From a virus (Duplodnaviria > Caudoviricetes): 64,000 nt of DNA. The stretch covers positions 11,710 to 75,709 of IMG/VR virus record IMGVR_UViG_3300021400_000080; one strand, 5' to 3'. The translations under genes were made by a program, and so were the position numbers. Shown one piece after another: positions 15,584-59,787 of the stretch. Within the stretch, counting starts at the first letter, position 1. Each line of letters starts with the position of its first letter. The notes under the pieces are model-generated. The model was not told the DNA's origin, made no database searches, and worked only from the letters and a program-made list of their open reading frames with translations.

Positions 15584-15892
15584 ATGGGTTACTATATTCC
15601 AGTTGGAAACAGTCACAGGGTTTTCGAGAACAATCTCAAGGATGCATACCTGACCGCAGCCAAGGTTCTGATTGGCAAGTACCGTTTTACAAACGGACAG
15701 ATTCACAAGGAGATCCCCGAATATACTGGATCGTATGGTATTCCGATATACGATTCCGCGACCGGCAAGGCAACTTCCCATTGGGTCAAATTCCACAATG
15801 GGAGCAACCCCAAGGACGGCTACGAGGAGTGTTCTTACAACAAGAACATAGGGATGAGTACCAAATCCAAGTCGTTCCCGAAGAACTGGTAA
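15584..15892 (+). CDS. small Tyr/Lys-rich family protein
   Basis: MGYY...NNLKDAYLTAAK...IPIY. Confidence 0.7.
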   Translation: MGYYIPVGNSHRVFENNLKDAYLTAAKVLIGKYRFTNGQIHKEIPEYTGSYGIPIYDSATGKATSHWVKFHNGSNPKDGYEECSYNKNIGMSTKSKSFPKNW

Positions 15893-15931
15893 AACCTCTT
15901 CCCTTTAAAGGGGATCAAAAGGTGATCTCAA

Positions 15932-16312
15932 ATGGGCGCAGTAATATTCGTTGGGACAAGTTATGAGTCGTGGGTTGATCTCAAAAAGATTGCCCAAACG
16001 TCTAACCTGAACAAGAAGTATTCCAAGGTCGCTACAACATATCGGAGTCTGGAAGAATGTAGGCATCGCGTAGCCGATGTCGGCAGCTGGAGTGCTTTCC
16101 ATTCCGAGAGACAACAGGGTTTCGTTTATGATGCCAAGACCGGCAAACTGAAAGGGATGATTAAAGGAGACGGCTGGTATTTCTTCCGTGATGGTATGTG
16201 GTATCACAGATTCATCAACAAAGGCGGCAAATTGGATTCACGCTACCCCGCCCGCCCGCATCCCGAAATCAAGATTGACCCTGATTCAAGACTCAATGTG
16301 GGGAGAGAGTGA
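15932..16312 (+). CDS. small Tyr/Lys-rich family protein
   Basis: YRSLEECRHRVA...FINKGGKL. Confidence 0.7.
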   Translation: MGAVIFVGTSYESWVDLKKIAQTSNLNKKYSKVATTYRSLEECRHRVADVGSWSAFHSERQQGFVYDAKTGKLKGMIKGDGWYFFRDGMWYHRFINKGGKLDSRYPARPHPEIKIDPDSRLNVGRE

Positions 16313-16315
16313 AGT

Positions 16316-16606
16316 ATGTTCTACTTCTACGACGGTACGATCGACAAGGGGTTCCACGGATACAGGACGGAGAAGGCCGCCATCCGTGAGGCCATCATCT
16401 ATGCCAAGAGGTTCCCCCGGAGATACATCGGGGTCTATGAGGAACATAACTACGGAGGGGAGTTCCTCGGCCGTGTGTATATCGGCACTATCAAGGGTAA
16501 AGAAACGGCCAAATACGAGTCCCATTCGGGAACGTACCGGCTGAACAAGGACGGATCGCTCGGCAAATATCTGAACGGCAACAGATATTCCTGTCCGAGA
16601 AATTGA
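16316..16606 (+). CDS. small Tyr/Lys-rich family protein
   Basis: YRTEKAAIREA...YRLNKDGSLGK. Confidence 0.75.
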   Translation: MFYFYDGTIDKGFHGYRTEKAAIREAIIYAKRFPRRYIGVYEEHNYGGEFLGRVYIGTIKGKETAKYESHSGTYRLNKDGSLGKYLNGNRYSCPRN

Positions 16607-16662
16607 TCCTCGACCCCCTTCGGGGGTTTTCCTTTTAAATATGCCAATCGGGATTACTTATC

Positions 16663-17148
16663 ATGCCCTATAAAGTCGGATTCAAACTCGATGACGGAAG
16701 AACCTTATGGCTCAAACAGACCTACGCATCCAAGTCGTATGCGGAGAAGGTGATGAAGAGGGAACGCGCCAAGCTGCTCGAAATGGGGATCAAACTCACC
16801 ATCCCCTATGTGGTGAAGGTCGATGACGGCAATCTCAAACTGGCTACACGTTCGACCGCACCCTCCAGCACCTCGAAGGTCCCCTCCGGCAAGGCATCGT
16901 CCGAGATCTACATCAAACCGTGGTACTGCGCGAAATACCCCACGGATAGTATGGGTCAGGACATCAATCCCAAGGCAACGTTCAAGGGCGCGATGGATGT
17001 CCTGAAACATACCAAGACCTCTTCCGACTTCTATAACTATGTCGATGTCCACGACTCCGTTGTACGCGAACGCATCTTCGATGAACTGGCGAGGAGGAGG
17101 AACCAATCCTACGATACAATCTACCGCGCGTGGTTAGGAGAGATTTGA
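16663..17148 (+). CDS. shared N-terminal module plus distinct C-terminal domain (cassette 1)
   Basis: MPYKVGFKLDDG...LLEMGIK; C-terminal YPTDSMGQDIN...DSVVRERIF. Confidence 0.75.
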   Translation: MPYKVGFKLDDGRTLWLKQTYASKSYAEKVMKRERAKLLEMGIKLTIPYVVKVDDGNLKLATRSTAPSSTSKVPSGKASSEIYIKPWYCAKYPTDSMGQDINPKATFKGAMDVLKHTKTSSDFYNYVDVHDSVVRERIFDELARRRNQSYDTIYRAWLGEI

Positions 17149-17218
17149 TCCACTGAACTGTCTAAAAACCTTTTACCCTCTGGGGTCTTTTTTAATACCG
17201 GTATTCGGATTATCAACC

Positions 17219-17695
17219 ATGTCATATACTGTATATGCCAAGCTGCCTAACGGCAAGGTCATCAAGTACGGAAAACCGCTGCAGACTCTCCCGGAGGTCA
17301 ATAATGCTAAGGCCGAGATGAAATCCGATCTCGAAAAAGCCGGAATCAAGGCGAAGGTCGAGGTATCCATTGATGCCTACGCGACCGGGGGACCTACTGT
17401 CAAGAAACCATCCATCTGCACCGCCAAGAATCCGAGAGGAGGGGACATCGCTGTCAATGGCAACCCCTACAAGCACGATTACTCTGCCGTACTGAAAAAT
17501 GCCCGGAGATTCTACAAGGATGCCGTTGTCGTGGTATGCTATAATAAAGCGGAACTGTGGGGGAGCCGCAGGGATGCGATGTCCTTCTATATGGAGGGCA
17601 TCTATGCGTGCGAGGGAGCCGAACGCGAACGCTACGAGAACATCTACTTCGATCTCCAGGATAAGAAAGACGTTGCCCTCGATGAGTGGTACTGA
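17219..17695 (+). CDS. shared N-terminal module plus distinct C-terminal domain (cassette 2)
   Basis: MSYTVYAKLPNG...DLEKAGIK; C-terminal CEGAERERYENIY. Confidence 0.75.
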   Translation: MSYTVYAKLPNGKVIKYGKPLQTLPEVNNAKAEMKSDLEKAGIKAKVEVSIDAYATGGPTVKKPSICTAKNPRGGDIAVNGNPYKHDYSAVLKNARRFYKDAVVVVCYNKAELWGSRRDAMSFYMEGIYACEGAERERYENIYFDLQDKKDVALDEWY

Positions 17696-17755
17696 AACCC
17701 TTTACCCCTTCAAGGGGGATTTTCCTTTAAATATCTGAATGGGGATATTTTCATT

Positions 17756-18358
17756 ATGTCCGATGAGCGGCGCACATACGCTTTGATCTACGTCGATGGG
17801 GAGAGGAAACTTATCAAAACCAAACCCCATTCTTTTTATTATTCTGACGAAGCCAAAAATGAATTAATACGGGATTTAAAAAAATCCGGACTCAAATATA
17901 ATTTCCTTGGCGAAAGTAAGACCCATATAACAATGGCCTCCATAACCAGAGTAGAAAAACTCGCCAGCAGAATCAACCCTCCGGTCGGAACGTGGTTCGC
18001 TACAAACGCAACTCGCAATTACACAAAATACAATTTTATGAGGATTGCCAAGAAGTGCGGAAATCCTTTCCCCCTCCAAGTCTATGTAAACCAAACCCCA
18101 TATATTGTCCAAGAAGTCGTGATGTCCTTTTATTCCAGCAAACTTCTGAAATCAGAAGGGCCGGGTTACGACAATTACAGCTGGTATCTGCCCGATAAAA
18201 AGACAAACGAAACCGAAACCGGCTACATCAGAATCTCTCCCAATGGCGAACTTACCGTCAATCCCGCACCAACCATGCAGAGTTGGCCTATATGGGAACG
18301 GTGGGATGATCGCAAAAAGGAACCGATAGTTGTCCACACAGCTTACGACCCTTGGTGA
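17756..18358 (+). CDS. shared N-terminal module plus distinct C-terminal domain (cassette 3)
   Basis: YVDGERKLIKTK...AKNELIRDLKKSGLKY. Confidence 0.75.
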   Translation: MSDERRTYALIYVDGERKLIKTKPHSFYYSDEAKNELIRDLKKSGLKYNFLGESKTHITMASITRVEKLASRINPPVGTWFATNATRNYTKYNFMRIAKKCGNPFPLQVYVNQTPYIVQEVVMSFYSSKLLKSEGPGYDNYSWYLPDKKTNETETGYIRISPNGELTVNPAPTMQSWPIWERWDDRKKEPIVVHTAYDPW

Positions 18359-18370
18359 ACACCTTTTCAA

Positions 18371-18404
18371 ACCCTTTACCCCTTCGGGGGTTTTCCTTTT
18401 AATA
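18371..18404 (+). terminator. representative copy of the repeated post-stop hairpin AAACCYYTTA-CCCC-N4-GGGG(G), followed by a T-tract/TATA
   Basis: Similar copies follow stops at 15892, 16606, 17148, 17695, 18992, 32371, 39076, 41121 and 49674. Confidence 0.65.
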
Positions 18405-18425
18405 CGGAAACGTGGATTATCATCT

Positions 18426-18992
18426 ATGCCGCAATATGCATACGCAGTCGTAATCGTAGACGGGAAGAAGAAGGTCATCAAGACCAAGGGATATTCCGAT
18501 GCCAAGGTCATACTTGCCAAGAACGAATTGGAGAAGGATTTGAAAGCCGCCGGGATCAAATACACCTACATCGGCATCAGCGAACATCCCCCGACCGCTG
18601 CCGACTTGGATGCCTCGAAGAGAGAAATTCGCAGGACAGAAAAACAGAAGGACACCATATCGAAAATGGGGAAAAAGACCCCAAGAAAGAGTGCATACGA
18701 TGAAAAACTGCCCAAAAACGGAGATATTTATGTTTGCACCTACGGACCCTACTCAACCGTAGAATTTTATATGGTTAAAGGAACTAAAGAATCCTCTCTG
18801 TATAACCTCGTCTCCATATCGAAAGAGATGTATGATGATGAAAACGTAATCCCTGATCCTCACGATGTCTTGACAGTTGGAAAATGGTACAAATACAACC
18901 CCGAATCAAGATCGTTCCAGATATATCCCCATATTCACGCAATAAAATGGGATGGTAAACCCGTTTATACCAGCGATTTTGAATACGCATAA
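18426..18992 (+). CDS. shared N-terminal module plus distinct C-terminal domain (cassette 4)
   Basis: IVDGKKKVIKTK...AKNELEKDLKAAGIKY; C-terminal WDGKPVY. Confidence 0.75.
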   Translation: MPQYAYAVVIVDGKKKVIKTKGYSDAKVILAKNELEKDLKAAGIKYTYIGISEHPPTAADLDASKREIRRTEKQKDTISKMGKKTPRKSAYDEKLPKNGDIYVCTYGPYSTVEFYMVKGTKESSLYNLVSISKEMYDDENVIPDPHDVLTVGKWYKYNPESRSFQIYPHIHAIKWDGKPVYTSDFEYA

Positions 18993-19052
18993 ATCCATTC
19001 CCCCCTCCACGGGGGATTCATTCTTTTTATACTCCCGTGACCATCCGCAATC

Positions 19053-19352: not shown

Positions 19353-20174
19353 ATGTCAAGGAGTCTTTCTGTTCTGACGGGAATATGTGTCGGAACGATC
19401 ATCTTCCTGACCATCGTTTTCCCCGCGCAGATATGCTCCTGTTACAAGGACGTGAAGGTCTCCGAATACGAAGGGGACAGTATCGTATCGTGGTATATGC
19501 CCGTGTTCGACGATTCCGGGATGGTGAAGTTACAATACCCCGTCACCACGGATACCGGTATCACCGAAGAGGATTTCCGGGAGGCGATGGATTCCCCCAT
19601 GTGCCGTAGGATCCTCGGCTCCACGGGGTACGGGATGTCCGACATACCCGACTGCCCTCAAGGGGTCGTGGACGGCATAGACGATGCCCTGGGACGGGTA
19701 GGGATGACCGCTGCGGACCTCACGGAGCATCAGCTGTGCGTGGTGATCTCGGCTTTCGTGAGGACGGGGATAGGATACGCTTACGATGACGATCTCTACG
19801 GCTGCCCGGATTACGCGGCATCGCCTACGGAGACGGTCTATCTCGGACGGGGTGACTGCGAGGACGTCGCCATATTGTTCGTGTCCATCGCGCGCGCATA
19901 CGGGATAGATGCCGTCCTGATAGGTTACTCGGACCATTGTAATGCCGGGATCAGGGTAAGCGGATGGGAAGGGTGGAACACCGTGGAGGGATACACGGTC
20001 GTGGAATGTACGTCCTCGTATTGGTACGTCGATAGGATCTTCTCACCGGACTGCGGAGAGGGAAGGGTACTCGGTCAATCCGCTGCGGACCGCATCGTGG
20101 ACTCCTATGTGACGTTCTGCGACCGTACCCTGCCGTTCAACCCCATTCTTTATATCGCACGGATGCTTTCGTAA
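19353..20174 (+). CDS. secreted or membrane-anchored transglutaminase-like cysteine protease
   Basis: N-terminal hydrophobic helix; GDCEDVAILF...DHC. Confidence 0.8.
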   Translation: MSRSLSVLTGICVGTIIFLTIVFPAQICSCYKDVKVSEYEGDSIVSWYMPVFDDSGMVKLQYPVTTDTGITEEDFREAMDSPMCRRILGSTGYGMSDIPDCPQGVVDGIDDALGRVGMTAADLTEHQLCVVISAFVRTGIGYAYDDDLYGCPDYAASPTETVYLGRGDCEDVAILFVSIARAYGIDAVLIGYSDHCNAGIRVSGWEGWNTVEGYTVVECTSSYWYVDRIFSPDCGEGRVLGQSAADRIVDSYVTFCDRTLPFNPILYIARMLS

Positions 20175-26983: not shown

Positions 26984-27226
26984 ATGGCAGATATGATGGA
27001 CAAAACCATTAGCGCGATACTCACTGCGTTCGTCGCGGTGATATTGATCGCTTCTGCGTTCATCCCTACTGCCATTCAGCAGATCGACACTCTCAACGAC
27101 AAGTACGGGTCGGATGTAGCGGGTTACACCGCACTCATCTCGACGGTCATCATTGTGACGATTGTCGGTATCATAATCGGCATAGTGAAAACCTACTCCT
27201 CCGGAAAAGGCGATGGAGACCGTTGA
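26984..27226 (+). CDS. two-helix hydrophobic capsid-like protein (minor, VP3-like)
   Basis: Hydrophobic helix-Pro-loop-hydrophobic helix, 80 aa. Confidence 0.6.
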   Translation: MADMMDKTISAILTAFVAVILIASAFIPTAIQQIDTLNDKYGSDVAGYTALISTVIIVTIVGIIIGIVKTYSSGKGDGDR

Positions 27227-27253
27227 TCTGACGAATATCGGAAGGTATGAACA

Positions 27254-27496
27254 ATGAACACCGAAGATTTCACCAGCAAAGTTGTCGGCATCGTGATTGC
27301 CGTCATCGTGATCGCGGTCGTTGCCATCCCCATCATCAATGGCATGATCGGAACCGACGGAACCCCTGAGGGATCCACCTACCCCATCCAGTCCGGCTCC
27401 ACCGAAGCTACCATCATCAAGGTCATCCCCATCTTCCTCATCCTGGCCGTCCTGATGGGAGTCGTCTACATGTTCCTCAACGGAAAGAAGAACTGA
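27254..27496 (+). CDS. putative major capsid protein of spindle-shaped-virus type
   Basis: IVIAVIVIAVVAIPIIN...ATIIKVIPIFLILAVL parallels the SSV1 VP1 pattern (LLPVIVSQV...ATLLNLVPLFYIL). Confidence 0.7.
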   Translation: MNTEDFTSKVVGIVIAVIVIAVVAIPIINGMIGTDGTPEGSTYPIQSGSTEATIIKVIPIFLILAVLMGVVYMFLNGKKN

Positions 27497-27503
27497 AGGA
27501 GGC

Positions 27504-27725
27504 ATGAAAATGAACACCGAAGATTTCACCAGCAAGGTTGTCACCGTTGTCATCGCGGTCATCGTGATTGCTGTCGTGGCCATCCCCGTCATCAATCAGG
27601 CGGCCGAGGAAAGCGGAGCCGACAACACCACCAAGACCATCCTGGGAGTCATTCCCATCTTCCTCATCCTGGCCGTCCTCATGACCGTGGTCTACATGTT
27701 CATGAACGGCAAGAAGGACAACTGA
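27504..27725 (+). CDS. putative major capsid protein paralog with a shorter loop
   Basis: Near-identical helices to 27254-27496; different loop. Confidence 0.7.
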   Translation: MKMNTEDFTSKVVTVVIAVIVIAVVAIPVINQAAEESGADNTTKTILGVIPIFLILAVLMTVVYMFMNGKKDN

Positions 27726-27907: not shown

Positions 27908-30418
27908 ATGCAGACAGGAATGAAAGCGGGTCTTGCAATCGTCCTCGCGGTATTCCTCACGGGCATCGTGGGGTTCCTCACCGCAGTCGTGCCGGAGGAC
28001 GAGGAAAGGACCTATTACGACCAAGTGAGCGATCTGACTCCGATTGTGGATGCCAGCGCAATCGACTCGTACACGGAATATAACCCGGTGACGAATGTCA
28101 GCGGATGGGCGAACATAGAAGGTGTGACGATCCCCACATTAACGACTGGCATATCTGCATATCCGTACAGATATACCACTGCCGGAGAGGATAGCGATAT
28201 ATCCAGATCGGTGAAGTTCGCAGCAGTCCTCGATGAATATCCTGATGATCCAGAGAAGTCATATTTCTGGCCCGTTGCTAAAATCTATTCGTTGTATGAA
28301 TCCTCAATCCCTAACAGTATCGAGTACAACGATGTAGAGATAGCAACGTCGGGCAGAGGTAATATAAGCGTAACCAAGGAGTATCAGGAAGGGGAATCGT
28401 TCGCAATCTGCATACTCCACATAGATACGCAAACGGCACAGCCAATCCATCAATTCACATACGAGGTCCACGTTAGTCCAACGTCTCAAAACAATTTCCG
28501 TCAGACCATCTCGACACTGGCGGTATTGGATAACCAGACATCGAGGACGATAACCGTGGGATGGGGGGAGAACTTCGAGTTACAGATCAATGTGTCATTG
28601 GGCGCACATCAGACCATCCGTGTGGACATGTTATCCCACGAAGGATATAGAGGACAGAATATCTTGTTAGATAATGGCGAGATCGTCAATGGTTTTTCAT
28701 CGAATCCGGTATCGCCTAAAGAATATTACGGAGGGGGATTGGATCAGCAGTATGCCCAAGGCGCACCTTCCACACGCACGACCTCTATCTCCAATTATCT
28801 TGTAGTGGACGGCCGCCATCTGACTACCGAATACGGAGCATACACCGTATATCCGCTGTCCATGTATTTCCCGCAGTCGGCATCCATCCAGGACGGGACC
28901 TTCATATCCATAGCCGGACTGAAATATGCGATGCCCACAACGTTCTATCATGGCACACGGACATGGGACGGCGGAGATTCAGGAGATGATGTATCGGGAA
29001 CGTGCCGTACCAACATATCCTCGATAGGGTATGACCATCTTGTTTATGTCAAGGATAACGAGAAGTGGTATCCGGGAGTATTGTCCGAGAACGGGTTGTA
29101 TTATGAGGCCGACATGACTAAACCGGGATATGGTATCGACGAGATATTCATGTTCGCATACGGGTTCAAGCAAGCTGCGACAATCAATGCAACGGAGATC
29201 GAGGTACAGTACGAATATATCGACGGTACTAAATTCGTTACAGTTGCAGACGGTATCACTGCGAAATGGTCCAATTACATGGACAGTACGGTAGGCGGCA
29301 AGACGGTGACGGTTCCCTATAACAACGGAGCAATCGTGCTTTTGACCGAGCCGGGAACAACCATATCGTCCGATAAAGTGTTCTATAAGGACACCGACGG
29401 CAACGTGACCCAAGGTAGTATGACACTTACCGTTCCTACATCCATCCCCTACTCGATGGCCCGTGTGACGTTGGACTTCCAGAACAATACCTACTATGCA
29501 CAGGGTATCGTGTGGGGATCCATCGACGAGGACGAGAGGGGAACGGGCAACTGGACCCTCCGTCCTTACCAGTATCCGATCTCAATCGGACTGAATGGCA
29601 TCCCTGACGTATCCTACGTCCAGGGGATCTCCGTTGAAAAAGCCGGGGGAACCAAGGTATTCGTTCTTGAGACCAGCGTGCAGACCGACCCGATGGGCAG
29701 ATTATGGGGTGATCCCACCATCTATCTCGGATACTTCTTCCCTGACTACTTCACCCACGACAGTGCAACCGGCAACACGGGAGTACCTACGACCGCCATC
29801 CGTATGCTCATCAACGGAGTTGTGAGTTACGGGACCTCGCTGACTATCAACGGACAGTATATGCCCGTGGCAGACGGGAACATCACGTTCACCTACTACA
29901 CCTACGAGACGGAGACCATTCCCTCCACCGACCCGAACGTCCCGCCTACAACCAACACGATCACCGTCACCAACGAGGGCAACATGCCGGTCAAGGGTAT
30001 GGCGATAGATTGGGAGGATGGGCATGTCTATCTTGTGTTCACCGAACAGGGTAAGACCCGTTACGATCTCGGAGAATACGATACGACCGCGGCCAATGTG
30101 GTCATCGCGGGTACGGACACAGGGAAGGACACCGTTGTAACGGACATCATAAGCGGAACGGGGACATGGTATTGGCAGTCCAACCTCTACACGATTAACC
30201 ACGAGATCGAAACGGTCCTCAAACTCGACCTCACACAAGGTTTGTCGGGTTGGGGAATGACGTTACAGGTCTCGATGCTGCTCTTCGCGGGTATGCTCAT
30301 CGTGGGGGTTGCCATCGTCCACTACTACTACCGCGACTCCGACGAACCGATGGGAATCCTTGATTGGGTTATTATAGGATTAGCGATATTGTTATGCTTA
30401 GGAGTTGCAGCAATATGA
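27908..30418 (+). CDS. large virion surface or tip protein (836 aa) with an N-terminal TM and two C-terminal TMs
   Basis: Hydrophobic ends and a Thr/Tyr-rich beta ectodomain; directly follows the capsid genes. Confidence 0.7.
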   Translation: MQTGMKAGLAIVLAVFLTGIVGFLTAVVPEDEERTYYDQVSDLTPIVDASAIDSYTEYNPVTNVSGWANIEGVTIPTLTTGISAYPYRYTTAGEDSDISRSVKFAAVLDEYPDDPEKSYFWPVAKIYSLYESSIPNSIEYNDVEIATSGRGNISVTKEYQEGESFAICILHIDTQTAQPIHQFTYEVHVSPTSQNNFRQTISTLAVLDNQTSRTITVGWGENFELQINVSLGAHQTIRVDMLSHEGYRGQNILLDNGEIVNGFSSNPVSPKEYYGGGLDQQYAQGAPSTRTTSISNYLVVDGRHLTTEYGAYTVYPLSMYFPQSASIQDGTFISIAGLKYAMPTTFYHGTRTWDGGDSGDDVSGTCRTNISSIGYDHLVYVKDNEKWYPGVLSENGLYYEADMTKPGYGIDEIFMFAYGFKQAATINATEIEVQYEYIDGTKFVTVADGITAKWSNYMDSTVGGKTVTVPYNNGAIVLLTEPGTTISSDKVFYKDTDGNVTQGSMTLTVPTSIPYSMARVTLDFQNNTYYAQGIVWGSIDEDERGTGNWTLRPYQYPISIGLNGIPDVSYVQGISVEKAGGTKVFVLETSVQTDPMGRLWGDPTIYLGYFFPDYFTHDSATGNTGVPTTAIRMLINGVVSYGTSLTINGQYMPVADGNITFTYYTYETETIPSTDPNVPPTTNTITVTNEGNMPVKGMAIDWEDGHVYLVFTEQGKTRYDLGEYDTTAANVVIAGTDTGKDTVVTDIISGTGTWYWQSNLYTINHEIETVLKLDLTQGLSGWGMTLQVSMLLFAGMLIVGVAIVHYYYRDSDEPMGILDWVIIGLAILLCLGVAAI

Positions 30419-30681
30419 TGTCACCGCAGGAGTTCATCGACATGCTTGCCCAGGCCTTCTTCCAGGGCAATACGCAGATCGCGGGCATAGTCGTGTTCAC
30501 CGCTGTCCTCGCCATCATATACCTCCTGTTCGCGCAGAGGAATATCACCGTAGGTCTTATCCTTACCCTCCCTACGACCCTCGTGTTCTCGCTGATGGGT
30601 ATTCTGCCGGAGGTCCTGACCATCCTCGTGGTGATCGTAACCATCCTCGCCCTCGTCCATAAGTTCAAGGAGATGTCGTGA
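30415..30681 (+). CDS. small 3-TM membrane protein
   Basis: Hydrophobic; ATGA-coupled. Confidence 0.75.
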   Translation: MMSPQEFIDMLAQAFFQGNTQIAGIVVFTAVLAIIYLLFAQRNITVGLILTLPTTLVFSLMGILPEVLTILVVIVTILALVHKFKEMS

Positions 30682-31954: not shown

Positions 31955-32371
31955 ATGGCAGAATATTGGCTCTATTGGAGCAAGTTCGAGGACAACAATA
32001 AACGTCCCGGACTGCCCGGAGGATTCAGGACCCTAAAGGATGCGCGCGAATGTGCGTATGAGAACGTTGTCACCAACCATCCCATCGAGATCGACGGGTC
32101 GGGCGAGGTCATCAAGAAGATCAAGGGCATCGTCTACTCCGAGAAGTCGGGTCGTTCGGGACCTGTCCGTCAGCGTGTCCTCAAGGACGGTTCCGTGTCC
32201 AAGACCAAGATTTTCGTCAATCCCGTCAATACCGCAGCCAAACTTAAAGCCAAGACTGCATCCAAGACATCCTCCAAGACCAAGACCGCGCCCAAGAAGA
32301 AACGCAAATACGGGGAGATCCTGGGCGATGCAGCGGTCGAGTTCGGGTCCGGACTCCTTTCACATCTCTGA
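31955..32371 (+). CDS. small Tyr/Lys-rich family protein with a Lys/Thr/Ala tail
   Basis: FRTLKDARECA...VLKDGSV. Confidence 0.75.
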   Translation: MAEYWLYWSKFEDNNKRPGLPGGFRTLKDARECAYENVVTNHPIEIDGSGEVIKKIKGIVYSEKSGRSGPVRQRVLKDGSVSKTKIFVNPVNTAAKLKAKTASKTSSKTKTAPKKKRKYGEILGDAAVEFGSGLLSHL

Positions 32372-41186: not shown

Positions 41187-41447
41187 ATGAGATATATCCT
41201 GTCATATTCGGATAAAGCTGCGGAACAGATAGACGGCACGGCAACCTTCGACGATCTGGACAAGGCGAGGAAGAGGGCATGCTCCCTGCTCCGCGCGGAA
41301 TCGCTGGTGCGCGTGCATCTGTTCCGCAACGGACGTTATATGGGGTGGGTATCGCACAACACGGCCTACAACTGGTTCCCCCATCACGACGGTCAGAAGG
41401 AGTGGGAAGTCTATCAACTCGACCCCGCAACGGGCAAGGTCGTGTAA
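41187..41447 (+). CDS. small Tyr/Lys-rich family protein
   Basis: FDDLDKARKRAC...YQLDPATGKV. Confidence 0.75.
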   Translation: MRYILSYSDKAAEQIDGTATFDDLDKARKRACSLLRAESLVRVHLFRNGRYMGWVSHNTAYNWFPHHDGQKEWEVYQLDPATGKVV

Positions 41448-42064: not shown

Positions 42065-42400
42065 ATGGCAGAGACCAAATATGCGGTTGTCAAGGGATTG
42101 AGTTGTAACGATCCCTCTAAATTGAAGAAGATGACCTTGACTGAGGCGCGTATAGAAGCGTGCAGACTGGCGAAAAAGCATCTTAATTCTCACACGAGGA
42201 TCGGTATTTTCGCAGAGGACAAATATCACATCTCCGGCGGCAGATATATGCCGAAATGTATTGAGGATGTGCGTTATGTTGATGATGGGATAGGCCGTAA
42301 GGGGTTCTATCTGCTTCAGTGGGAAAAGAACAGGAATTATAGGGTATCCCCTACATCCGGACGTTTGATGGATTACAGCCGCGAGTGGAAGTACATTTGA
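42065..42400 (+). CDS. small Tyr/Lys-rich family protein
   Basis: MTLTEARIEACRLA...YRVSPTSGRL. Confidence 0.75.
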   Translation: MAETKYAVVKGLSCNDPSKLKKMTLTEARIEACRLAKKHLNSHTRIGIFAEDKYHISGGRYMPKCIEDVRYVDDGIGRKGFYLLQWEKNRNYRVSPTSGRLMDYSREWKYI

Positions 42401-42752: not shown

Positions 42753-42761
42753 GGTGAAGAT

Positions 42762-43127
42762 ATGGTGTATAGCATCGAGACATATTCAATGGGGGATAGG
42801 AAGTTCATCGTACTTAGAGACGATATAAAGACCATCAAGACCGCAAGGATTTTAGCATGCAGATATGCTAAAGAATACAGTAAGGTTGCAATCTACCCCG
42901 CACGCAAAAGCGATCTTCAAAAATTCGGACAAAAAGTTTTCACGGAAGGAGCATTTGCGAAAGAGGAAATCTATTATAACAGGTCGAAAGCGTGTTATAT
43001 CTCTGAAAAAAAGGAAGAGATCCTCGATGGAAAAAAGGGTTACAGTCCCATTGTCAATAAGTATTACAAGGTCAATGGAAGAACAGGGGAGATCACACTT
43101 ATTGAAGAATATCGCAAAAAATGGTAA
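42762..43127 (+). CDS. small Tyr/Lys-rich family protein
   Basis: IKTIKTARILAC...YKVNGRTGEI. Confidence 0.75.
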   Translation: MVYSIETYSMGDRKFIVLRDDIKTIKTARILACRYAKEYSKVAIYPARKSDLQKFGQKVFTEGAFAKEEIYYNRSKACYISEKKEEILDGKKGYSPIVNKYYKVNGRTGEITLIEEYRKKW

Positions 43128-43144: not shown

Positions 43145-43498
43145 ATGGCATATTACGTCCGTAATGCTAAATGGTGGAACAGGGAGAGCAAAAGCGAATA
43201 CACATCCTACTCTACGCTTTCGGAGGCGAGGGTTGCAGCGGCCCGTCTCCTATCCCACGAATACTATGACGGAGAGAGTGTTCCGATCTACATCAAGAAA
43301 AGCAACAGATATTCCATCTATGCTTTCGTCCGTGAGGTCATTGGATCTTACGAGGGAGAGGATGAGGACATTCCTGTGGGTTCATCCAAATTCGTATATC
43401 GTACCGCTTCCGGAACGGAATGTCTCATGTCCAAATCGGGTGAGTTGGGCAAGACCAGATGGAGATCGTGGTTCAAACTCGAATATCCGAGACACTGA
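43145..43498 (+). CDS. small Tyr/Lys-rich family protein
   Basis: YSTLSEARVAAA...MSKSGELGK. Confidence 0.75.
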   Translation: MAYYVRNAKWWNRESKSEYTSYSTLSEARVAAARLLSHEYYDGESVPIYIKKSNRYSIYAFVREVIGSYEGEDEDIPVGSSKFVYRTASGTECLMSKSGELGKTRWRSWFKLEYPRH

Positions 43499-44136: not shown

Positions 44137-44184
44137 TCGTTTTAAACCCCTTCTTTTTTTATATGATGATTCGGATTATTTATT

Positions 44185-44541
44185 ATGTCCAAAACATCGA
44201 AAGTCCACGGACCTTATTATCTGGAGTACAAGGGATGGAGTGGCGGTTACAAACCCGTCAGGGATGCCAAGACACCCGGATATGCGACACAGTACAAGAC
44301 CATCACCGAGGCGAGGAAGAAGGCGGTCCTCTTCATCAAGCACAACTCCTGCCAGTTGGTCGGGATTCAGGGAGAGGTCGGCAAGAGGACATACGGCCGC
44401 GATGGGAGGCCCATCGTCCAGGGCGGCACCGCCGGTATCGTGGAGAGGGAGTACGACGGATACACGTTCATCTACCGCGACTACAATTCCGGCAATACCT
44501 ACCGTATCAACAAGGACGGATCGGTCAAGAAGATGGAGTGA
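44185..44541 (+). CDS. small Tyr/Lys-rich family protein
   Basis: YKTITEARKKAV...YRINKDGSV. Confidence 0.78.
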   Translation: MSKTSKVHGPYYLEYKGWSGGYKPVRDAKTPGYATQYKTITEARKKAVLFIKHNSCQLVGIQGEVGKRTYGRDGRPIVQGGTAGIVEREYDGYTFIYRDYNSGNTYRINKDGSVKKME

Positions 44542-44546
44542 GAGAT

Positions 44547-45263
44547 ATGGGAAGATTCACAGTCAAGATCGGCGGCGAGGAAAAGGTATTCAAGGATGCC
44601 GACAACCTCCGCAGATACGTTATGCGTTACGGAGACAAGACCAAGAGATATACCTATCAGGGAGAGGGCGGTCAGTTCATTGACGGCTATGGGGTCATGT
44701 ATTACACGCAGAAGGACGGTTGGAAAGTCAAACTCAAGACCGGAAGCATATATCAGATTGACAGAAGGTCTGGAGAGATTTTCGAGGGTGGCAGATACAC
44801 AGTCAGGATGGCAGGAAAGGGTGAGTCAAATCCTCGCATCTTCTCTACTGATGATTTCTCCGATGCGATCAACAAGGCAATCACTCAGTATGCCCGGAAC
44901 CGTGGAAGAAAAGTCTATATCTACGATAAGGACAAGAAACTCGGACGTATCGGAGAGAGAAGCGGATACGCAACGTGGATAGACCACAAGACCAAGAGAA
45001 CGACATCGTTCAAGGATGATGATTACGAAGTGCCGAGGAAACCCGCCGGACTTACCCCCAAGCAGCCCGGTTGGATCATCGCCGGCAGGAGAGCCGGAAG
45101 CAAGGGCGCGTTCAAATACTTCTCCGGAGAGTCATTCGCGGCCAAGAAGTATGCGATGGTATGGCCTTACAACAAGTACGAACAGGCAGAGAAAACCATC
45201 GAGGAGCTGCGCTGGTACGGTGAGTATGAACATTACGAGTTCAAGATCGTAAGAGAGTCTTGA
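44547..45263 (+). CDS. multi-module Tyr/Lys-rich family protein
   Basis: Tandem units: FKDADNLRRYV...YQIDRRSGEI and DDFSDAINKA. Confidence 0.7.
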   Translation: MGRFTVKIGGEEKVFKDADNLRRYVMRYGDKTKRYTYQGEGGQFIDGYGVMYYTQKDGWKVKLKTGSIYQIDRRSGEIFEGGRYTVRMAGKGESNPRIFSTDDFSDAINKAITQYARNRGRKVYIYDKDKKLGRIGERSGYATWIDHKTKRTTSFKDDDYEVPRKPAGLTPKQPGWIIAGRRAGSKGAFKYFSGESFAAKKYAMVWPYNKYEQAEKTIEELRWYGEYEHYEFKIVRES

Positions 45264-45283
45264 TTTCGGAAAGGTGTCCAAAT

Positions 45284-45640
45284 ATGGCAGAATATCAGTT
45301 CAGACTGGAACAGTGGGTTCTACATTCTGTTAAGAACAGTCGTGGATACTACGATTACACATCGGAATACACCCCCATCGGTAAGATGTCCAAGAAGTAT
45401 AAGTCTCTTCAAGAGTGCCGTGCCGCTGCCCGGAAGTATCTTATCGACAATAAGATCTCGTCAGGCACATCAAGTCCGAGGAAAGTGGCCGTCATCTATC
45501 TCAATGGGAAAAAGAGTACCGGGTACGATCTGGTATGTTATGGTGGTATGGTCTTGCTTTTCGGAGCATCGGGCGAGACGGTCGTTTCCGAGAACGGCAA
45601 CACGTTCAAATTGAGGACATTCGGTGGAATGTATCACTGA
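45284..45640 (+). CDS. small Tyr/Lys-rich family protein
   Basis: YKSLQECRAAAR...VSENGN. Confidence 0.75.
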   Translation: MAEYQFRLEQWVLHSVKNSRGYYDYTSEYTPIGKMSKKYKSLQECRAAARKYLIDNKISSGTSSPRKVAVIYLNGKKSTGYDLVCYGGMVLLFGASGETVVSENGNTFKLRTFGGMYH

Positions 45641-47814: not shown

Positions 47815-49674
47815 ATGGAACAGAATGTTCTTATTACGAAAATGATAGGGATAATCGTTGCCGTTATCGTGGCAGCGGTTGTCCTTGTACCGATATGCAA
47901 CTCCCTGACCGAAGGGAACGGGGGTAGCGGAGGAGGAGGAGTAACAGGGATTCAGGTTGCCAATCCCAACTATGTTTCCCCCTCCGTATTCATGACAGAT
48001 GAGATAGGTTGGACGGCTATGACAAATACGGATATGGAGGCATATTTCCCCACATCCGGAGATTACATCGAAGGATATTCCAATATCGTATCCGGGAGGA
48101 ACAAGATCGCATTTGTAGATGATATTTCCATGACCGAATGTACCCTTACCTATTGGAACAGATACCTTGATTCAAGCAGTAATGGTAATCCTATATGGTA
48201 TATCTCATTCCCCGGACAGGTGGAAGGATTCGGAGATGCGTCCTCTTGGAGTCTTTCGTCCGATGGTAATATCACGATAACCTACAAGGTTTCAGGAATG
48301 TCGAATTATACCACAAAAACATTCAAGGCATTGTATCTATGGTATGATGCTCCCACGGGTAATTACCACAACCTTAGTGGTATCACATACGATCAGAATC
48401 TTGAAAAACTCGGAGGTTTCGCTGGTGTCGGTGATTACATCGGAATATCCGGACAAGTCCAGAGTCAGTATAACCCCGGAATGTTACCGTTCGTATATAT
48501 GGGTCAGATTCCTGAAAGCATGAATGTATCCATATCATACACGGACTATCAGTTCGATCAAGCCACTGAAACTATCACCCCTATCCCGTCCACGGCCAAT
48601 ATCGACCTGACGGCTATATCCTACTCGGTTCAGTTGGAGGATGGCAGATACTATTTCCCTACTGCGTTCGCGGTTGCTCCGACCTATACGTTCGAGGGTC
48701 ACTACGAGGATCGTGTCATGACACTGGATTGGATAAAACAGAAAATGTCGGAGGACGATGGTCTATGGGGATTCGATTATTCTGATGCACCGGGATACGA
48801 GGATACTATCCTATGTTTCAACGGGTTCGGTAAGATCGGGACGATGGCGCAGTATTGGGTCTATCCTACGGACGGTCAATGGAGTGAAGGCAGAATGGAA
48901 CGTGTAGCCACTACCGCAGCGGATTTCGCTATGGTTTTCGACAATGGTTATGGAACCGGATGCCTTTTGCAGATTGAACGTGAAAAAGAAGTAGGTAGTG
49001 AGACTTGGAGTTATCAGGGTCTTGAGATAACAGAGGATATTGTATTGGGTGAGGTCAATATCAGTTCTTACGACACTGCATATCTCTCGAAAGCGAATAT
49101 GGGGAATGTGATGTACTATCGTGATACATTCATGAACAATCAGTTTACAGGACAGTATATCGCGCAGTTCTCGGAAAATGCTAACGGATTTTGGCTCATT
49201 CCTAATTCGGAGGTCATATCGGATGAGGATTTCGATTGGAGCAGTGTTCCTGAAGATTTCCTTATCCCCAATCCCGTATCGTGGGAAACCGCGCTTGCTA
49301 ACAACCCAATAACCATAACAAATCTGGCGGTAAAGGATGCTATCTACCCCTATTATGATTTCATCCTTGATAATACAGGAAAGGCATACATGTTTGAATC
49401 TCCTTCTTCGGAGTATGAGCGTCAGGGACCCGAATACAATGAAGTTGCAATTTGGACACCTGGAACGTCTCCGTTGAATTGTGCAATACCCATGTCATAC
49501 GATTATAGGGTACTCGCAGCCGGAGAGGGGGATTCGTCTAATGGCGGCGGTTCTTCGGGAGGTAACGACCTCGGAGTAGCCGGAACGATCATCGGCATCA
49601 TCCCCGTGTTCGTGATACTCGCCATCCTAATGGGAGCTGCCGGACTGTTCTACCAGAACCGTAAGACGATCTGA
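47815..49674 (+). CDS. capsid-hairpin paralog with an ~540-aa passenger between Gly linkers
   Basis: IGIIVAVIVAAVVLVPICNS-GNGGSGGGG...GGGSSGGN-VAGTIIGIIPVFVILAILMG. Confidence 0.85.
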   Translation: MEQNVLITKMIGIIVAVIVAAVVLVPICNSLTEGNGGSGGGGVTGIQVANPNYVSPSVFMTDEIGWTAMTNTDMEAYFPTSGDYIEGYSNIVSGRNKIAFVDDISMTECTLTYWNRYLDSSSNGNPIWYISFPGQVEGFGDASSWSLSSDGNITITYKVSGMSNYTTKTFKALYLWYDAPTGNYHNLSGITYDQNLEKLGGFAGVGDYIGISGQVQSQYNPGMLPFVYMGQIPESMNVSISYTDYQFDQATETITPIPSTANIDLTAISYSVQLEDGRYYFPTAFAVAPTYTFEGHYEDRVMTLDWIKQKMSEDDGLWGFDYSDAPGYEDTILCFNGFGKIGTMAQYWVYPTDGQWSEGRMERVATTAADFAMVFDNGYGTGCLLQIEREKEVGSETWSYQGLEITEDIVLGEVNISSYDTAYLSKANMGNVMYYRDTFMNNQFTGQYIAQFSENANGFWLIPNSEVISDEDFDWSSVPEDFLIPNPVSWETALANNPITITNLAVKDAIYPYYDFILDNTGKAYMFESPSSEYERQGPEYNEVAIWTPGTSPLNCAIPMSYDYRVLAAGEGDSSNGGGSSGGNDLGVAGTIIGIIPVFVILAILMGAAGLFYQNRKTI

Positions 49675-49733: not shown

Positions 49734-50045
49734 ATGGTAAAATACTACCTATGTTACATGAAAGATGACCGTCATGGGGGTAACAATCTGAAAAAGAGTA
49801 CCCTCATTGAAGTCAGCAGTATCGTGGTTGCGCGTGCAAAAGCGATAAAGTACCTAAAGGACAACATGAAGAGCAATCGGGATTATGTAGAGATTCAGAA
49901 GGTTGTCCGTAACGGGGTTAAGGATGTTTGCGAGGTCTATTTCAAGAAGGGAAATTACGTTGCCTATTATTACGATAGAAACGGTGAGATCGTCAGCAAA
50001 TACCTGAATGTGAAAGGATCATTGGGTAAATCATTCTCTTATTGA
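49734..50045 (+). CDS. small Tyr/Lys-rich family protein
   Basis: SSIVVARAKAI...YLNVKGSLGK. Confidence 0.75.
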   Translation: MVKYYLCYMKDDRHGGNNLKKSTLIEVSSIVVARAKAIKYLKDNMKSNRDYVEIQKVVRNGVKDVCEVYFKKGNYVAYYYDRNGEIVSKYLNVKGSLGKSFSY

Positions 50046-50134: not shown

Positions 50135-50434
50135 ATGGTATCATACTACCTTGTCAGATATAAAAACAAGAAGAGGATCGAGGACCCCCGTGAGTTCTCT
50201 ACCCTTGATGCAGCACGCAAGGCCGCGATGCGTATGGGTATTCCCGAAGGGGAAAACGTATATGTGTTCCGTTTGGTTGATTCCAAGTCCGAGGATAAGA
50301 AATTCGGGATTGTGGAAAACTACGGAGACCATTGGGTATGGGTCAAGTACGTCCCCGGTAAAGGCGGCCGTCTTTCATACCCCTCATACCCGATTTACAG
50401 AAACGGCAGTATAGGTAAAGAATTCAGATATTGA
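50135..50434 (+). CDS. small Tyr/Lys-rich family protein
   Basis: FSTLDAARKAA...IYRNGSIGK. Confidence 0.78.
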   Translation: MVSYYLVRYKNKKRIEDPREFSTLDAARKAAMRMGIPEGENVYVFRLVDSKSEDKKFGIVENYGDHWVWVKYVPGKGGRLSYPSYPIYRNGSIGKEFRY

Positions 50435-58343: not shown

Positions 58344-58344
58344 G

Positions 58345-58554
58345 ATGTTCGACCCGCTGGACCTTATGTATAAGGATATGGAAATCGGATTATTCGTGGC
58401 ATCCCATGTCATAGACGTGGAACAATCCGTTGCAAAAGTCATGCGCGATAAACTGACACAAGAGGAACGTGATATGTACTTCGACGAGGATATGGCATTT
58501 GACGATGGATACGAGGTATACCGATGTTGGACATATTCGAGTTATCCCCATTGA
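58345..58554 (+). CDS. hypothetical protein
   Basis: Operon packing. Confidence 0.5.
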   Translation: MFDPLDLMYKDMEIGLFVASHVIDVEQSVAKVMRDKLTQEERDMYFDEDMAFDDGYEVYRCWTYSSYPH

Positions 58555-58703
58555 CCGAGGACGATCTGGAATTGATAGACAAGGGCATCGAGGACGAGGA
58601 AGCGATGTGTTCCTGTATCGCATATCTGTTATGGGAAGAACACAAGATGGAGATTATCGAAAAACTGAATGAAAGTTTGAAGAACGTCAATCTCAAGGCA
58701 TAA
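58524..58703 (+). CDS. acidic hypothetical protein (59 aa)
   Basis: GAGGT RBS; MLDIFELSPLTEDDLELIDKG; ends at the AAACCTTTT motif. Confidence 0.55.
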   Translation: MLDIFELSPLTEDDLELIDKGIEDEEAMCSCIAYLLWEEHKMEIIEKLNESLKNVNLKA

Positions 58704-58736
58704 AACCTTTTAAACGACAACCCACATTCTTTTCGT

Positions 58737-59096
58737 ATGGCAACTTACTATTATGCCGCGTTCCAGGATGAATACACCGGGTTCGGTAAACCCGGCAAGA
58801 CAGACTCCATATCCGCAGCCAGGAAGAATCTCATCGCACGCATGAAGAGGAATTATGCCGAGGCGGGAGTGATCGCCACCGTTCCCGACCTGGACGGTAT
58901 CTCCGAACGTGACCGTGCTTTTGTCGGCTCAATCAATGCCAGTGCCGGACCCGTGATCAACGGGAAGATGACCGCAGATTACTACATCTGGTTCCCGAAA
59001 GGAAGCAAAAAGAAATACCTCGTCAAGTCCGATGGCAGCGTGGTCGAATATCAGGGAATGAAACAGATCATCGAAATGAGAACTAAAAGGAAATGA
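58737..59096 (+). CDS. small Tyr/Lys-rich family protein
   Basis: DSISAARKNL...YLVKSDGSV. Confidence 0.75.
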   Translation: MATYYYAAFQDEYTGFGKPGKTDSISAARKNLIARMKRNYAEAGVIATVPDLDGISERDRAFVGSINASAGPVINGKMTADYYIWFPKGSKKKYLVKSDGSVVEYQGMKQIIEMRTKRK

Positions 59097-59150
59097 ATTG
59101 ATCGGAGAATTTGCTGAAACCTTTTAAACCCCCCATTCTATTCAATTTGT

Positions 59151-59432
59151 ATGTACTACACATACTACAACAAACCCTGCTGTTCAAGTATAACCTACCG
59201 TACGAAAATCATCGAGATACCCAATGCGACATCCATCAACGCAGCCCGCAAGGGAGCGATAATGATGTGCAACCGGGGGATACTCGACCCTCACGAGGTA
59301 TTCATCAGTCGTGGGGGATGGGGTCAAGGCACTCTGTCAAAAAAGAACGGGATCTGGTATTGGAGCCGTGCCAAAACCCACAACCGCTATGTCGTAGACC
59401 CCGACACAGGACAGATTTCCAAACAGGATTAA
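59151..59432 (+). CDS. small Tyr/Lys-rich family protein
   Basis: TSINAARKGA...YVVDPDTGQI. Confidence 0.75.
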   Translation: MYYTYYNKPCCSSITYRTKIIEIPNATSINAARKGAIMMCNRGILDPHEVFISRGGWGQGTLSKKNGIWYWSRAKTHNRYVVDPDTGQISKQD

Positions 59433-59457
59433 ATAAGATAATCTTCATTTTTGTATC

Positions 59458-59787
59458 ATGACCTACTATACCGTAGTGATGGAGAATTTCAACGATAAAT
59501 CTCGTAATCCCCATACCACCAGGAAGATGTTTGATACAGTGGACGAGGCGCGCAGATTCGCGTGCAGGGAACTTGTGAATAGCGGTCATCCGAGGAACTA
59601 CCTTGCCGGCATTTATAGGATTGCCGAAGAACTCGCCTGGACCGATGTTCCTCCCAAGAAGAACCGTGTCGGAGAAGTCCACAGATGGGCAGATGGCAAA
59701 TTCATGTACTACCACGAGCATCCGGTCAAATACCGTAAAGCGTGGGTCAATCCGCGGACCGGCAAGATCGGAAAAGGAATGTGGTGA
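59458..59787 (+). CDS. small Tyr/Lys-rich family protein
   Basis: FDTVDEARRFAC...VNPRTGKIGK. Confidence 0.78.
   Translation: MTYYTVVMENFNDKSRNPHTTRKMFDTVDEARRFACRELVNSGHPRNYLAGIYRIAEELAWTDVPPKKNRVGEVHRWADGKFMYYHEHPVKYRKAWVNPRTGKIGKGMW

What the first reader, a model, noticed from the sequence alone, without database searches (positions are those of the whole stretch)
15584..59787. About 17 dispersed paralogs of an unnamed ~100-aa Tyr/Lys-rich protein family
Seen: there is a shared pattern of M-x-Y-Y/h, then [FY]x[ST][LI]x[EDA]ARxxA, beta strands, and a C-terminal Y-x-[ILV]-x-x-x-G-x-[LIV]-(GK). It appears at 15584, 15932, 16316, 31955, 41187, 42065, 42762, 43145, 44185, 44547 (tandem), 45284, 49734, 50135, 58737, 59151 and 59458, plus the N-terminus of 4144-4725. 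The copies are highly divergent, and many have their own TATA and post-stop hairpin. Inference: a diversifying family of basic nucleic-acid-binding or anti-defence effectors. Such an expansion in one genome is unusual.
Basis: partly seen in the sequence, partly recalled or inferred. Interest (0 to 1): 0.75.

Follow-up and report, generated by a model that had tools for sequence, protein, structure and literature searches.

The report
Fourteen-copy orphan protein family, archaeal virus
A 75.7-kb virus of gut methanogens carries 14 very old, very divergent copies of a small protein domain found only in its closest relatives; its function is unknown, but one copy sits where the DNA-reading part of a DNA methyltransferase normally sits.

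Summary
The family is real, but it has 14 members, not 17. In a leave-one-out HMM test, 12 held-out copies rank first among about 800 window ORFs and decoys. Copies 15584 and 15932 fail; 44547 is marginal. Paralogues are 11-29% identical. Two AlphaFold models from independent alignments (pLDDT 87 and 85) give the same beta-beta-alpha-beta4 fold. No Pfam, PHROG or solved-structure relative is significant; the best is AcrIF9 at Z 6.2 and 4.8, below the noise bar.

Among 1.84 billion representatives there are 19 hits, all but one (P0001, a likely spurious repeat protein) from sister viruses. The host is probably Methanomassiliicoccales, and the capsid genes are of the spindle-virus type.

The copies are old and individually kept: orthologues are 54-94% identical and dN/dS is 0.21. 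They lie in islands that a sister virus (core about 88% nt) lacks; it has 3 copies against 14.

One copy is fused to C5-methyltransferase motifs IX-X and is conserved in seven orthologues. Homologous subunits carry a canonical target-recognition domain at that position.

Best reading (0.4): a non-enzymatic, probably DNA-associated binding module. An anti-defence role, as for the 12 AcrID1 homologues of SIRV2, is nearly as likely.

The parts
4144..4725 (-). Fused copy. The family domain (aa 1 to ~105, acidic, pI 4.6) is joined by a linker of ~8 aa to C5 DNA methyltransferase motifs IX and X.
   Evidence: Leave-one-out rank 1, E 0.009. PF00145 matches aa 87-175 to profile positions 254-322 of 324, above cut-off. 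Seven orthologues of 184-193 aa; P0038 at 53% identity scores E 2e-10 against the family HMM without having been in its training set.
16316..16606 (+). Family member, 96 aa, inside an operon.
   Evidence: Leave-one-out rank 1, E 9e-5. Orthologue P0006 at 86%; the tandem-fused relative P0016 has two family domains. Absent from sister virus G001.
31955..32371 (+). Family member, 138 aa. Domain, then a Lys/Ser/Thr-rich linker, then a conserved hydrophobic C-terminal peptide also found at the end of the upstream gene p410.
   Evidence: Leave-one-out rank 1. Eight orthologues with a nearly invariant domain and a linker of variable length. Tail motif shared only with 30678-31910. TATA at -28.
41187..41447 (+). 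Family member, 86 aa. The best-conserved copy and the only clean orthologue pair with G001.
   Evidence: Leave-one-out rank 1. 85% aa identity to G001, dN/dS 0.21. The P0012 cluster has 48 member sequences.
42065..42400 (+). Family member, 111 aa. The second modelled paralogue.
   Evidence: Leave-one-out rank 1, E 2e-5. AF2 model from its own orthologues only: pLDDT 85, pTM 0.80, same order of elements.
42762..43127 (+). Family member, 121 aa, preceded by a ribosome site.
   Evidence: Leave-one-out rank 1. Orthologues P0002 and P0020 at 81-86%.
43145..43498 (+). Family member, 117 aa, preceded by a ribosome site.
   Evidence: Leave-one-out rank 1, E 5e-6. Orthologue P0013 at 54%.
44185..44541 (+). 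Family member, 118 aa, with its own TATA at -27.
   Evidence: Leave-one-out rank 1, E 9e-7. Orthologue P0005 at 76%.
45284..45640 (+). Family member, 118 aa. The most divergent copy.
   Evidence: Leave-one-out rank 1, E 0.002.
49734..50045 (+). Family member, 103 aa, with its own TATA and a terminator hairpin.
   Evidence: Leave-one-out rank 1, E 0.019. Signals. Absent from G001.
50135..50434 (+). Family member, 99 aa. The first modelled paralogue.
   Evidence: Leave-one-out rank 1, E 2e-6. AF2 pLDDT 87, pTM 0.77. The syntenic G001 copy is only 44% identical, with dN 0.49.
58737..59096 (+). Family member, 119 aa.
   Evidence: Leave-one-out rank 2, E 0.077. 76 bits against the core HMM. Orthologue P0004 at 92%.
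59151..59432 (+). Family member, 93 aa.
   Evidence: Leave-one-out rank 2, E 0.12. Carries both motifs.
59458..59787 (+). Family member, 109 aa, with a terminator hairpin after the stop.
   Evidence: Leave-one-out rank 1, E 4e-6. Orthologue P0003 at 94%.
44547..45263 (+). Claimed tandem copy, 238 aa. Membership is marginal.
   Evidence: Leave-one-out rank 22. Second half iE 0.014 with the wider HMM. hhalign probability 1.6%.
15584..16312 (+). Two claimed copies (15584-15892 and 15932-16312) that are not supported as members.
   Evidence: Leave-one-out ranks 40 and 5 with E 18 and 2.5. hhalign probability 0.1% and 3%, helix motif only.

Best explanation
Shown: the window holds 14 ancient paralogues of one compact alpha+beta domain of about 90-100 aa, with the element order beta-beta-alpha-beta-beta-beta-beta. 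The domain is known only from this virus and a handful of sister viruses. The virus is a 75.7-kb genome with direct terminal repeats, probably of Methanomassiliicoccales, and it has spindle-virus-type capsid genes. The conserved positions are core aromatic and aliphatic residues, a Gly turn, and four Arg/Lys positions. There is no catalytic-type set of residues, so the domain is a binding module and not an enzyme. The genes are real and constrained, but they are accessory: most lie in islands that a close sister virus lacks.

Inferred: the module is DNA-associated. In one conserved gene it takes the place of the target-recognition domain in the small C-terminal subunit of a split C5 cytosine methyltransferase. 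There it would either read DNA itself or dock the separately encoded recognition modules. The 13 stand-alone, mostly basic copies would then be small DNA- or RNA-binding accessory proteins with paralogue-specific surfaces. One of them (31955) would be tethered, through a Lys-rich histone-H1-like linker and a C-terminal peptide, to the same virion or membrane partner as its upstream neighbour.
For: Family and fold. The two independent models share the same top neighbours.

Binding module: only M, Y, A-R-x-x-A, I, Y, Y and G are conserved in at least 9 of 14 copies. The conserved basic columns are R28, K29, position 86 and K95.

Restricted range: 19 hits in 1.84 billion representatives. The family is absent from vir335, the closest named relative found through the primase.

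Constraint: dN/dS 0.21; orthologues at 54-94%; a near-invariant domain in the 31955 group.

DNA link: the fused copy matches PF00145 motifs IX-X. The fusion is kept in seven orthologues down to 53% identity. Homologous small subunits (P0042, P0044, P0045, P0047-P0051) carry a canonical TRD core (xPT[ILV]) in the same slot.

Other support: Lys-rich tail plus a shared C-terminal peptide. Tandem-fused two-domain relatives P0016 and P0018 suggest the domains work in pairs. Stand-alone copies have pI 7.9-9.9. The copies lie in the structural module and share its promoter type with capsid genes.
Against: No known DNA-binding fold or family is detectable. The fused copy is acidic (pI 4.6) and has Leu in place of the conserved Arg, so it may be an adaptor and not a DNA reader. 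The basic charge is not significantly above the small-ORF background. Copy number of 14 against 3 between close relatives, and allele replacement, fit arms-race genes better than DNA-handling genes. No model coordinates were available, so I could not test for a basic surface patch.
Confidence: 0.4

Rival explanations
1. Anti-defence or host-takeover effectors. Each paralogue would be a small inhibitor that binds a different host protein, such as a CRISPR-Cas, restriction or other defence component. The closest parallel is the AcrID1 family, which has 12 homologues in the rudivirus SIRV2.
For: Small, non-enzymatic, and restricted to one clade. The copies lie in islands missing from a sister virus with ~88% identical core DNA: 14 copies against 3. 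Two syntenic slots hold copies only 44% and 30% identical, while flanking genes have dS of 0.3-0.5. Half are single-gene units with a TATA promoter. AcrIF9 is the top structural neighbour of both independent models (Z 6.2 with rmsd 3.2 over 70 residues, and Z 4.8). Precedent in PMC11065993.
Against: All Z values are under the tool's own noise bar of about 7-8. There is no sequence link to any Acr. No private early-promoter motif and no Aca-like regulator were seen, and the promoter type is shared with capsid genes. The copies sit in the structural module and not at the genome ends. Each orthogroup is strongly conserved. The conserved MTase fusion is not explained by this reading.
Confidence: 0.3
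2. Virion-associated adaptors or assembly chaperones for the many large hairpin-anchored surface proteins encoded next to the copies.
For: Copies follow p410, p652, p176 and p619, all of which have N- and C-terminal hydrophobic helices. The 31955 copy shares its C-terminal peptide with p410. The copies share promoter and terminator junctions with capsid genes.
Against: Adjacency is weak evidence in a compact genome. G001 keeps a family copy where the 619-aa neighbour is absent. The cluster at 42065-45640 has no large partners. The MTase fusion is not explained.
Confidence: 0.12
3. Not a family. The shared pattern reflects Tyr/Lys-rich composition and chance short motifs in unrelated small ORFs.
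For: No pairwise phmmer hit at E<1. The C-terminal motif alone is as common in decoys as in real ORFs. Three of the listed copies fail every test.
Against: Leave-one-out ranks. Reversed members score at background. The helix motif is found in 11 family ORFs, 1 other ORF and 0 decoys. An unseen relative, P0038, is recovered at E 2e-10. Two independent AF2 models give the same fold.
Confidence: 0.02

Closest known systems
AcrID1 family of Sulfolobus rudiviruses (12 homologues in SIRV2; PMC11065993)
   Same: Many divergent copies of one small non-enzymatic protein in a single archaeal virus genome. Many are single genes behind a strong TATA promoter. Copy number differs between related viruses.
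   Different: No sequence or fold link was detected; AcrID1 is not among the 50 best structural rows. The copies here are mostly basic, lie in the structural module and not at the genome termini, and have no private regulatory motif. No anti-CRISPR activity is known for them.
AcrIF9 (PDB 7CHR, 7BB5)
   Same: It is the best structural neighbour of both models: a small beta-sheet-plus-helix protein, with 65-70 of its 76 residues aligned at rmsd 3.0-3.2.
   Different: Z of 6.2 and 4.8 is below the level that separates kinship from a common arrangement. Identity is 9-16%. The models have extra C-terminal strands. The hosts and defence systems are unrelated.
Beta subunit of split C5 cytosine methyltransferases such as M.AquI (own knowledge), and the small TRD + IX + X subunits found here (P0042-P0051)
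   Same: The 4144-4725 protein is a separate small polypeptide ending in motifs IX and X, as these subunits do.
   Different: The canonical target-recognition core (xPT[ILV]) is missing from this protein. The family domain occupies that position. TRD-like modules are encoded as separate short ORFs upstream.
Small basic chromatin or virion DNA-binding proteins of archaea and their viruses (MC1; SSV1 VP2, own knowledge)
   Same: About 90-120 aa, basic, a beta-sheet with one helix, encoded by a methanogen-associated spindle-type virus.
   Different: The MC1 HMM PF05854 finds nothing in the genome at E <= 10. There is no fold match. Fourteen paralogues with variable presence are not typical of chromatin proteins.

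Membership tests
AcrIF9 anti-CRISPR family | Detectable sequence similarity to AcrIF9 | tested here: not met
   A profile of the 14 copies searched against all PDB sequences at E <= 10 does not list AcrIF9. Structural alignments show 9-16% identity.
AcrIF9 anti-CRISPR family | Same fold at a significant level | tested here: inconclusive
   Top hit for both models, but Z is 6.2 and 4.8, below the tool's noise bar of 7-8. Foldseek E 0.37, TM 0.44/0.55.
AcrIF9 anti-CRISPR family | Inhibits the type I-F Csy complex | not testable with these tools
   This needs an interference assay. The CRISPR type of the host is unknown.
AcrID1 family | Sequence or fold similarity to AcrID1 | tested here: inconclusive
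   No AcrID1 entry appears in the 50 best rows of either wide structural search. No direct comparison was run.
AcrID1 family | Multi-paralogue, single-gene organisation with strong TATA promoters | tested here: met
   14 copies, 7 with a TATA at -40..-20. This is an analogy of organisation only, and the promoter type is not specific to the family.
MC1 archaeal chromatin protein (PF05854) | Match to the family HMM | tested here: not met
   No match in the whole genome at E <= 10, while the control genomes did give matches.
HicB-like antitoxin (PF15919) | Match to the family HMM | tested here: not met
   No match at E <= 10.
LPD16 domain of polyvalent proteins (PF18830) | Match to the family HMM, or a recurring structural similarity | tested here: not met
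   No HMM match. The TM 0.49 lead for one paralogue did not recur for a second paralogue.
C5 cytosine DNA methyltransferase (PF00145), fused copy only | Motifs IX and X | tested here: met
   aa 87-175 match profile positions 254-322 of 324, 27.7 bits against a cut-off of 22.
C5 cytosine DNA methyltransferase (PF00145), fused copy only | Canonical target-recognition core before motif IX | tested here: not met
   There is no xPT[ILV] core in 4144-4725 or its seven orthologues, whereas 8 of the 13 related subunits carry one.
C5 cytosine DNA methyltransferase (PF00145), fused copy only | Catalytic motifs I-VIII in the same polypeptide | tested here: not met
   These motifs are encoded separately at 7152-8426, interrupted by an intein.

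The most novel reading that the evidence does not exclude
The domain is a previously unseen DNA-recognition fold that can stand in for the target-recognition domain of a C5 methyltransferase. The virus has expanded it into 13 free-standing sequence or structure readers, which could act as regulators, genome-to-capsid tethers or site-blocking anti-restriction factors.
Probability: 0.2. Interest if true: 0.75.

Novelty: new variant of a known kind. Interest (0 to 1): 0.5.

Why it matters
Viruses of gut methanogens are almost unstudied, and most of their genes have no annotation. This family makes up 14 of roughly 110 genes in one such virus. It has a confidently predicted fold with no clear solved relative. 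It also has one conserved fusion that gives a concrete, testable lead: a link to the DNA-recognition slot of a methyltransferase. If the DNA-binding reading holds, this is a new recognition module for a well-studied enzyme class. If the anti-defence reading holds, it would be, to my knowledge, the first expanded counter-defence family described for methanogen viruses, parallel to AcrID1 in Sulfolobus viruses. Either result would help annotate a group of viruses that infect methane-producing archaea in animal guts.

Tried and rejected
- Pairwise phmmer among the copies gave nothing at E<1.
- Pfam and PHROG scans of the copies gave only sub-threshold noise.
- Foldseek against PDB and BFVD gave nothing at E <= 0.001.
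- A profile search against PDB sequences gave nothing relevant.
- The MC1, LPD16 and HicB-like HMMs gave no match in the genome.
- ESM Atlas: feature scores were 0.79-0.83, which is noise level. The LPD16 structural lead did not recur.
- The four neighbouring genes at 16663-18992 share an N-terminal module that looks similar by eye, but hhalign gives probability 0.2%, so they are a separate family.
- ORF 13259-13717 has the helix motif in the wrong context and is not a member.
- P0001 (3093 aa, 31 short repeated matches to the helix motif only) is treated as a spurious repeat hit.
- Searches for more sister genomes: the alignment was too divergent for the search for related loci. P0016 and P0018 are not in IMG/VR. 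Two genome-contig scans were empty. The one metagenome hit is the same virus as G001.
- No longer protein carries the fused copy's domain (weak evidence).
- The island neighbours have no informative annotation.
Full report
**Context**

The window is bases 11710-75709 of a complete 75,709-bp virus record with direct terminal repeats. The replication genes are a D5-type primase-helicase, an SNF2 helicase and a RecE-like exonuclease. The closest named relative found through the primase is 'Caudoviricetes sp. vir335', at 30% identity and E 1e-46. Its host is recorded as Methanomassiliicoccales and its source as baboon faeces.

Three tandem proteins of 73-80 aa at 26984-27725 each have two hydrophobic helices. 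The first matches the His1 spindle-virus capsid family (PF25665, E 2e-5, just under cut-off), and the second weakly matches fusellovirus VP1/VP3. Several large neighbours carry an N-terminal and a C-terminal hydrophobic helix. I found no terminase, portal or HK97-type capsid gene.

First genes of transcription units have a TTTATATA-like box about 25-32 nt before the ATG and no Shine-Dalgarno sequence. Genes inside operons have a GGTGA-type site. TAG is a rare stop: 2 of 41 long ORFs, and none of the 14 family genes. All of this fits an archaeal virus of a pyrrolysine-using methanogen, probably spindle-shaped.

**Is the family real?**

Pairwise phmmer finds nothing at E<1, so I used a leave-one-out test. 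An HMM built from 16 claimed copies was searched against all 411 window ORFs of at least 50 aa plus their reversed sequences.
- Twelve held-out copies ranked first (E 9e-7 to 0.019) and two ranked second.
- 15584, 15932 and 44547 ranked 40th, 5th and 22nd.
- Reversed members, which have the same composition, stayed at background.

The helix motif is found in 11 family ORFs, one unrelated ORF and no decoy. The C-terminal motif alone is not specific. A whole-genome profile search returns exactly the 14 supported copies. A wider HMM that includes outside relatives lifts only the second half of 44547, to iE 0.014. hhalign aligns only the short helix motif for the three doubtful ORFs, at probabilities of 0.1-3%. 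My count is therefore 14 members, one marginal and two unsupported.

**Fold**

AlphaFold2 on copy 50135 with the 14-paralogue alignment gives pLDDT 87 and pTM 0.77, with the order beta-beta-alpha-beta-beta-beta-beta. As an independent test I modelled copy 42065 using only its own four orthologues. That gives pLDDT 85, pTM 0.80 and the same order of elements.

Wide structural searches with the two models share several of their best neighbours: AcrIF9 first in both, plus 1ztp, 3msw, YkuJ, Dmd and PsaD.

No neighbour is significant. Z is 6.2 (rmsd 3.2, 70 residues) and 4.8, below the tool's stated noise level of 7-8. Foldseek finds nothing at E <= 0.001 in PDB or BFVD. ESM Atlas neighbours are unnamed clusters of small virus proteins.

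**Range and evolution**

Among 1.84 billion representatives, only 19 proteins match at E <= 0.001. All but one (a repeat protein, probably spurious) are orthologues of individual window copies or further members from sister viruses. These include two tandem two-domain fusions. vir335 lacks the family.

Paralogues are 11-29% identical, with a mean of 20%, and none is recent. Orthologues are 54-94% identical, and the 31955 domain is almost invariant in nine sequences.

Against the one sister genome I could read (G001, the same virus as contig L007; core 83-90% nt):
- The 41187 pair has dN/dS 0.21, with dN about 2.5-5 times that of the replication genes.
- Most copies lie in segments that G001 lacks. 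Window 15156-18998 corresponds to 0.37 kb in G001, and 41989-45634 to 0.5 kb.
- Copy 31955 is replaced by 2.3 kb of other DNA.
- G001 has 3 copies against 14. Two of them sit in syntenic slots but are only 44% and about 30% identical to the copies here, while flanking genes have dS of 0.3-0.5.

The pattern is old, individually constrained genes that are gained, lost and swapped as cassettes. It is not ongoing hypermutation.

**Clues to function**

1. Only core aromatic and aliphatic positions, a Gly turn and four Arg/Lys columns are conserved. This points to a binding module and not an enzyme.

2. The minus-strand gene 4144-4725 joins the family domain directly to C5-methyltransferase motifs IX-X (PF00145).
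 - Motifs I-VIII are in a separate gene (7152-8426) that carries an intein.
 - Between the two genes lie short ORFs in all three frames, each with a TRD-like '...SPTIT...' core.
 - The fusion is conserved in six orthologues at 87-91% and one at 53%. That last one scores E 2e-10 against the family HMM although it was not used to build it.
 - Related small subunits carry a canonical TRD core in exactly that slot, and two carry another unrelated insert.
 - So the family domain occupies the DNA-recognition slot of a split methyltransferase subunit. The fused copy is acidic and lacks the conserved Arg, so it could be an adaptor for the separate TRD modules and not a DNA reader itself.

3. The 31955 orthogroup adds a Lys/Ser/Thr-rich linker of variable length ('TAPKKKRK') and a C-terminal peptide that is shared only with the adjacent hairpin protein p410. 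This suggests a tethered, possibly DNA-binding, virion-associated form.

4. Stand-alone copies have pI 7.9-9.9. Against a crude small-ORF background this is not significant; the Tyr-richness is.

5. The promoter and terminator junction (stop, AAACCYYTT, GC hairpin, T run, TATA) is shared with capsid and structural genes. There is no private early-gene signal.

**Weighing the readings**

The methyltransferase fusion, the conserved basic positions, the H1-like tail and the position in the structural module favour a DNA-associated binding module (0.4). The island distribution, allele replacement, narrow range, single-gene units and the repeated but weak AcrIF9 resemblance favour anti-defence effectors (0.3). 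The latter has a published precedent: 12 AcrID1 homologues in SIRV2 (PMC11065993). The two readings are not exclusive. An assembly or adaptor role is possible (0.12). A purely compositional artefact is excluded for the 14 members.

**Limits**

No model coordinates were available for surface analysis. The background gene call used for the pI comparison is crude. No experiment bears on function.

Noticed in passing
window 7152-8426 (-): The N-terminal half of the C5 methyltransferase (motifs I-VIII) has a mini-intein of ~150 aa inserted inside the catalytic PC motif (Intein_splicing E 6e-10, above cut-off).
   Followed up: partly
window 4786-7100 (-): About 8-10 short ORFs in all three frames each end in a TRD-like R(I/V)Yxxx G(I/L)(S/C)PT(I/L) core. 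Several contain in-frame TAGs. One TGA and one TAG separate the last module from the fused family copy. How these pieces make a working multi-specific enzyme is unexplained.
   Followed up: partly
window 26984-27725 (+), and 27908-30418, 30678-31910, 34374-38378, 39163-41121, 41466-41996, 47815-49674: Three tandem His1/fusellovirus-like capsid genes, and many large proteins with one N-terminal and one or two C-terminal hydrophobic helices, including a 1334-aa BspA-type LRR protein. At 75.7 kb this would be a very large spindle-type virus.
   Followed up: partly
window, at least 15 sites, e.g. 15892, 17695, 32371, 39075, 41121, 49674: A conserved gene-junction element: stop codon, AAACC[TC][CT]TT, a C5/G5 hairpin, a T run, then a TATA box about 28 nt before the next ATG. 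Family genes and structural genes both have it.
   Followed up: partly
window 16663-18992 (+): Four consecutive genes share an N-terminal module of ~55 aa (MxYxV, hairpin, helix, GIK strand) with unrelated C-terminal halves. hhalign finds no relation to the family studied here (probability 0.2%). All four are absent from G001.
   Followed up: yes
window 30678-31910 and 31955-32371 (+): Both proteins end in the same AAxxF(L)GSG..L[FL]x[FH]L peptide, which is found nowhere else in G000 or G001. It may be a shared docking or sorting signal.
   Followed up: partly
window 19353-20174 (+): A 273-aa protein with a transglutaminase-like core (PF01841, E 2e-7, above cut-off) and hydrophobic segments. 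It may be a protease or a cross-linking enzyme.
   Followed up: no
L001-L004 and L007 (G001 = IMGVR_UViG_3300031994_005341; Ga0247608_10000612): The IMG/VR record labelled 'provirus' (46.3 kb, 61% complete) is cut from a 55.5-kb metagenome contig. It is collinear with this genome across its terminal repeat. The missing part matches the methyltransferase region, so it is probably a whole smaller sister genome and not a provirus.
   Followed up: partly
window 1769-3040 (-): A 423-aa protein with a weak match to the Lar restriction-alleviation family (PF14354, E 0.009, below cut-off).
   Followed up: no
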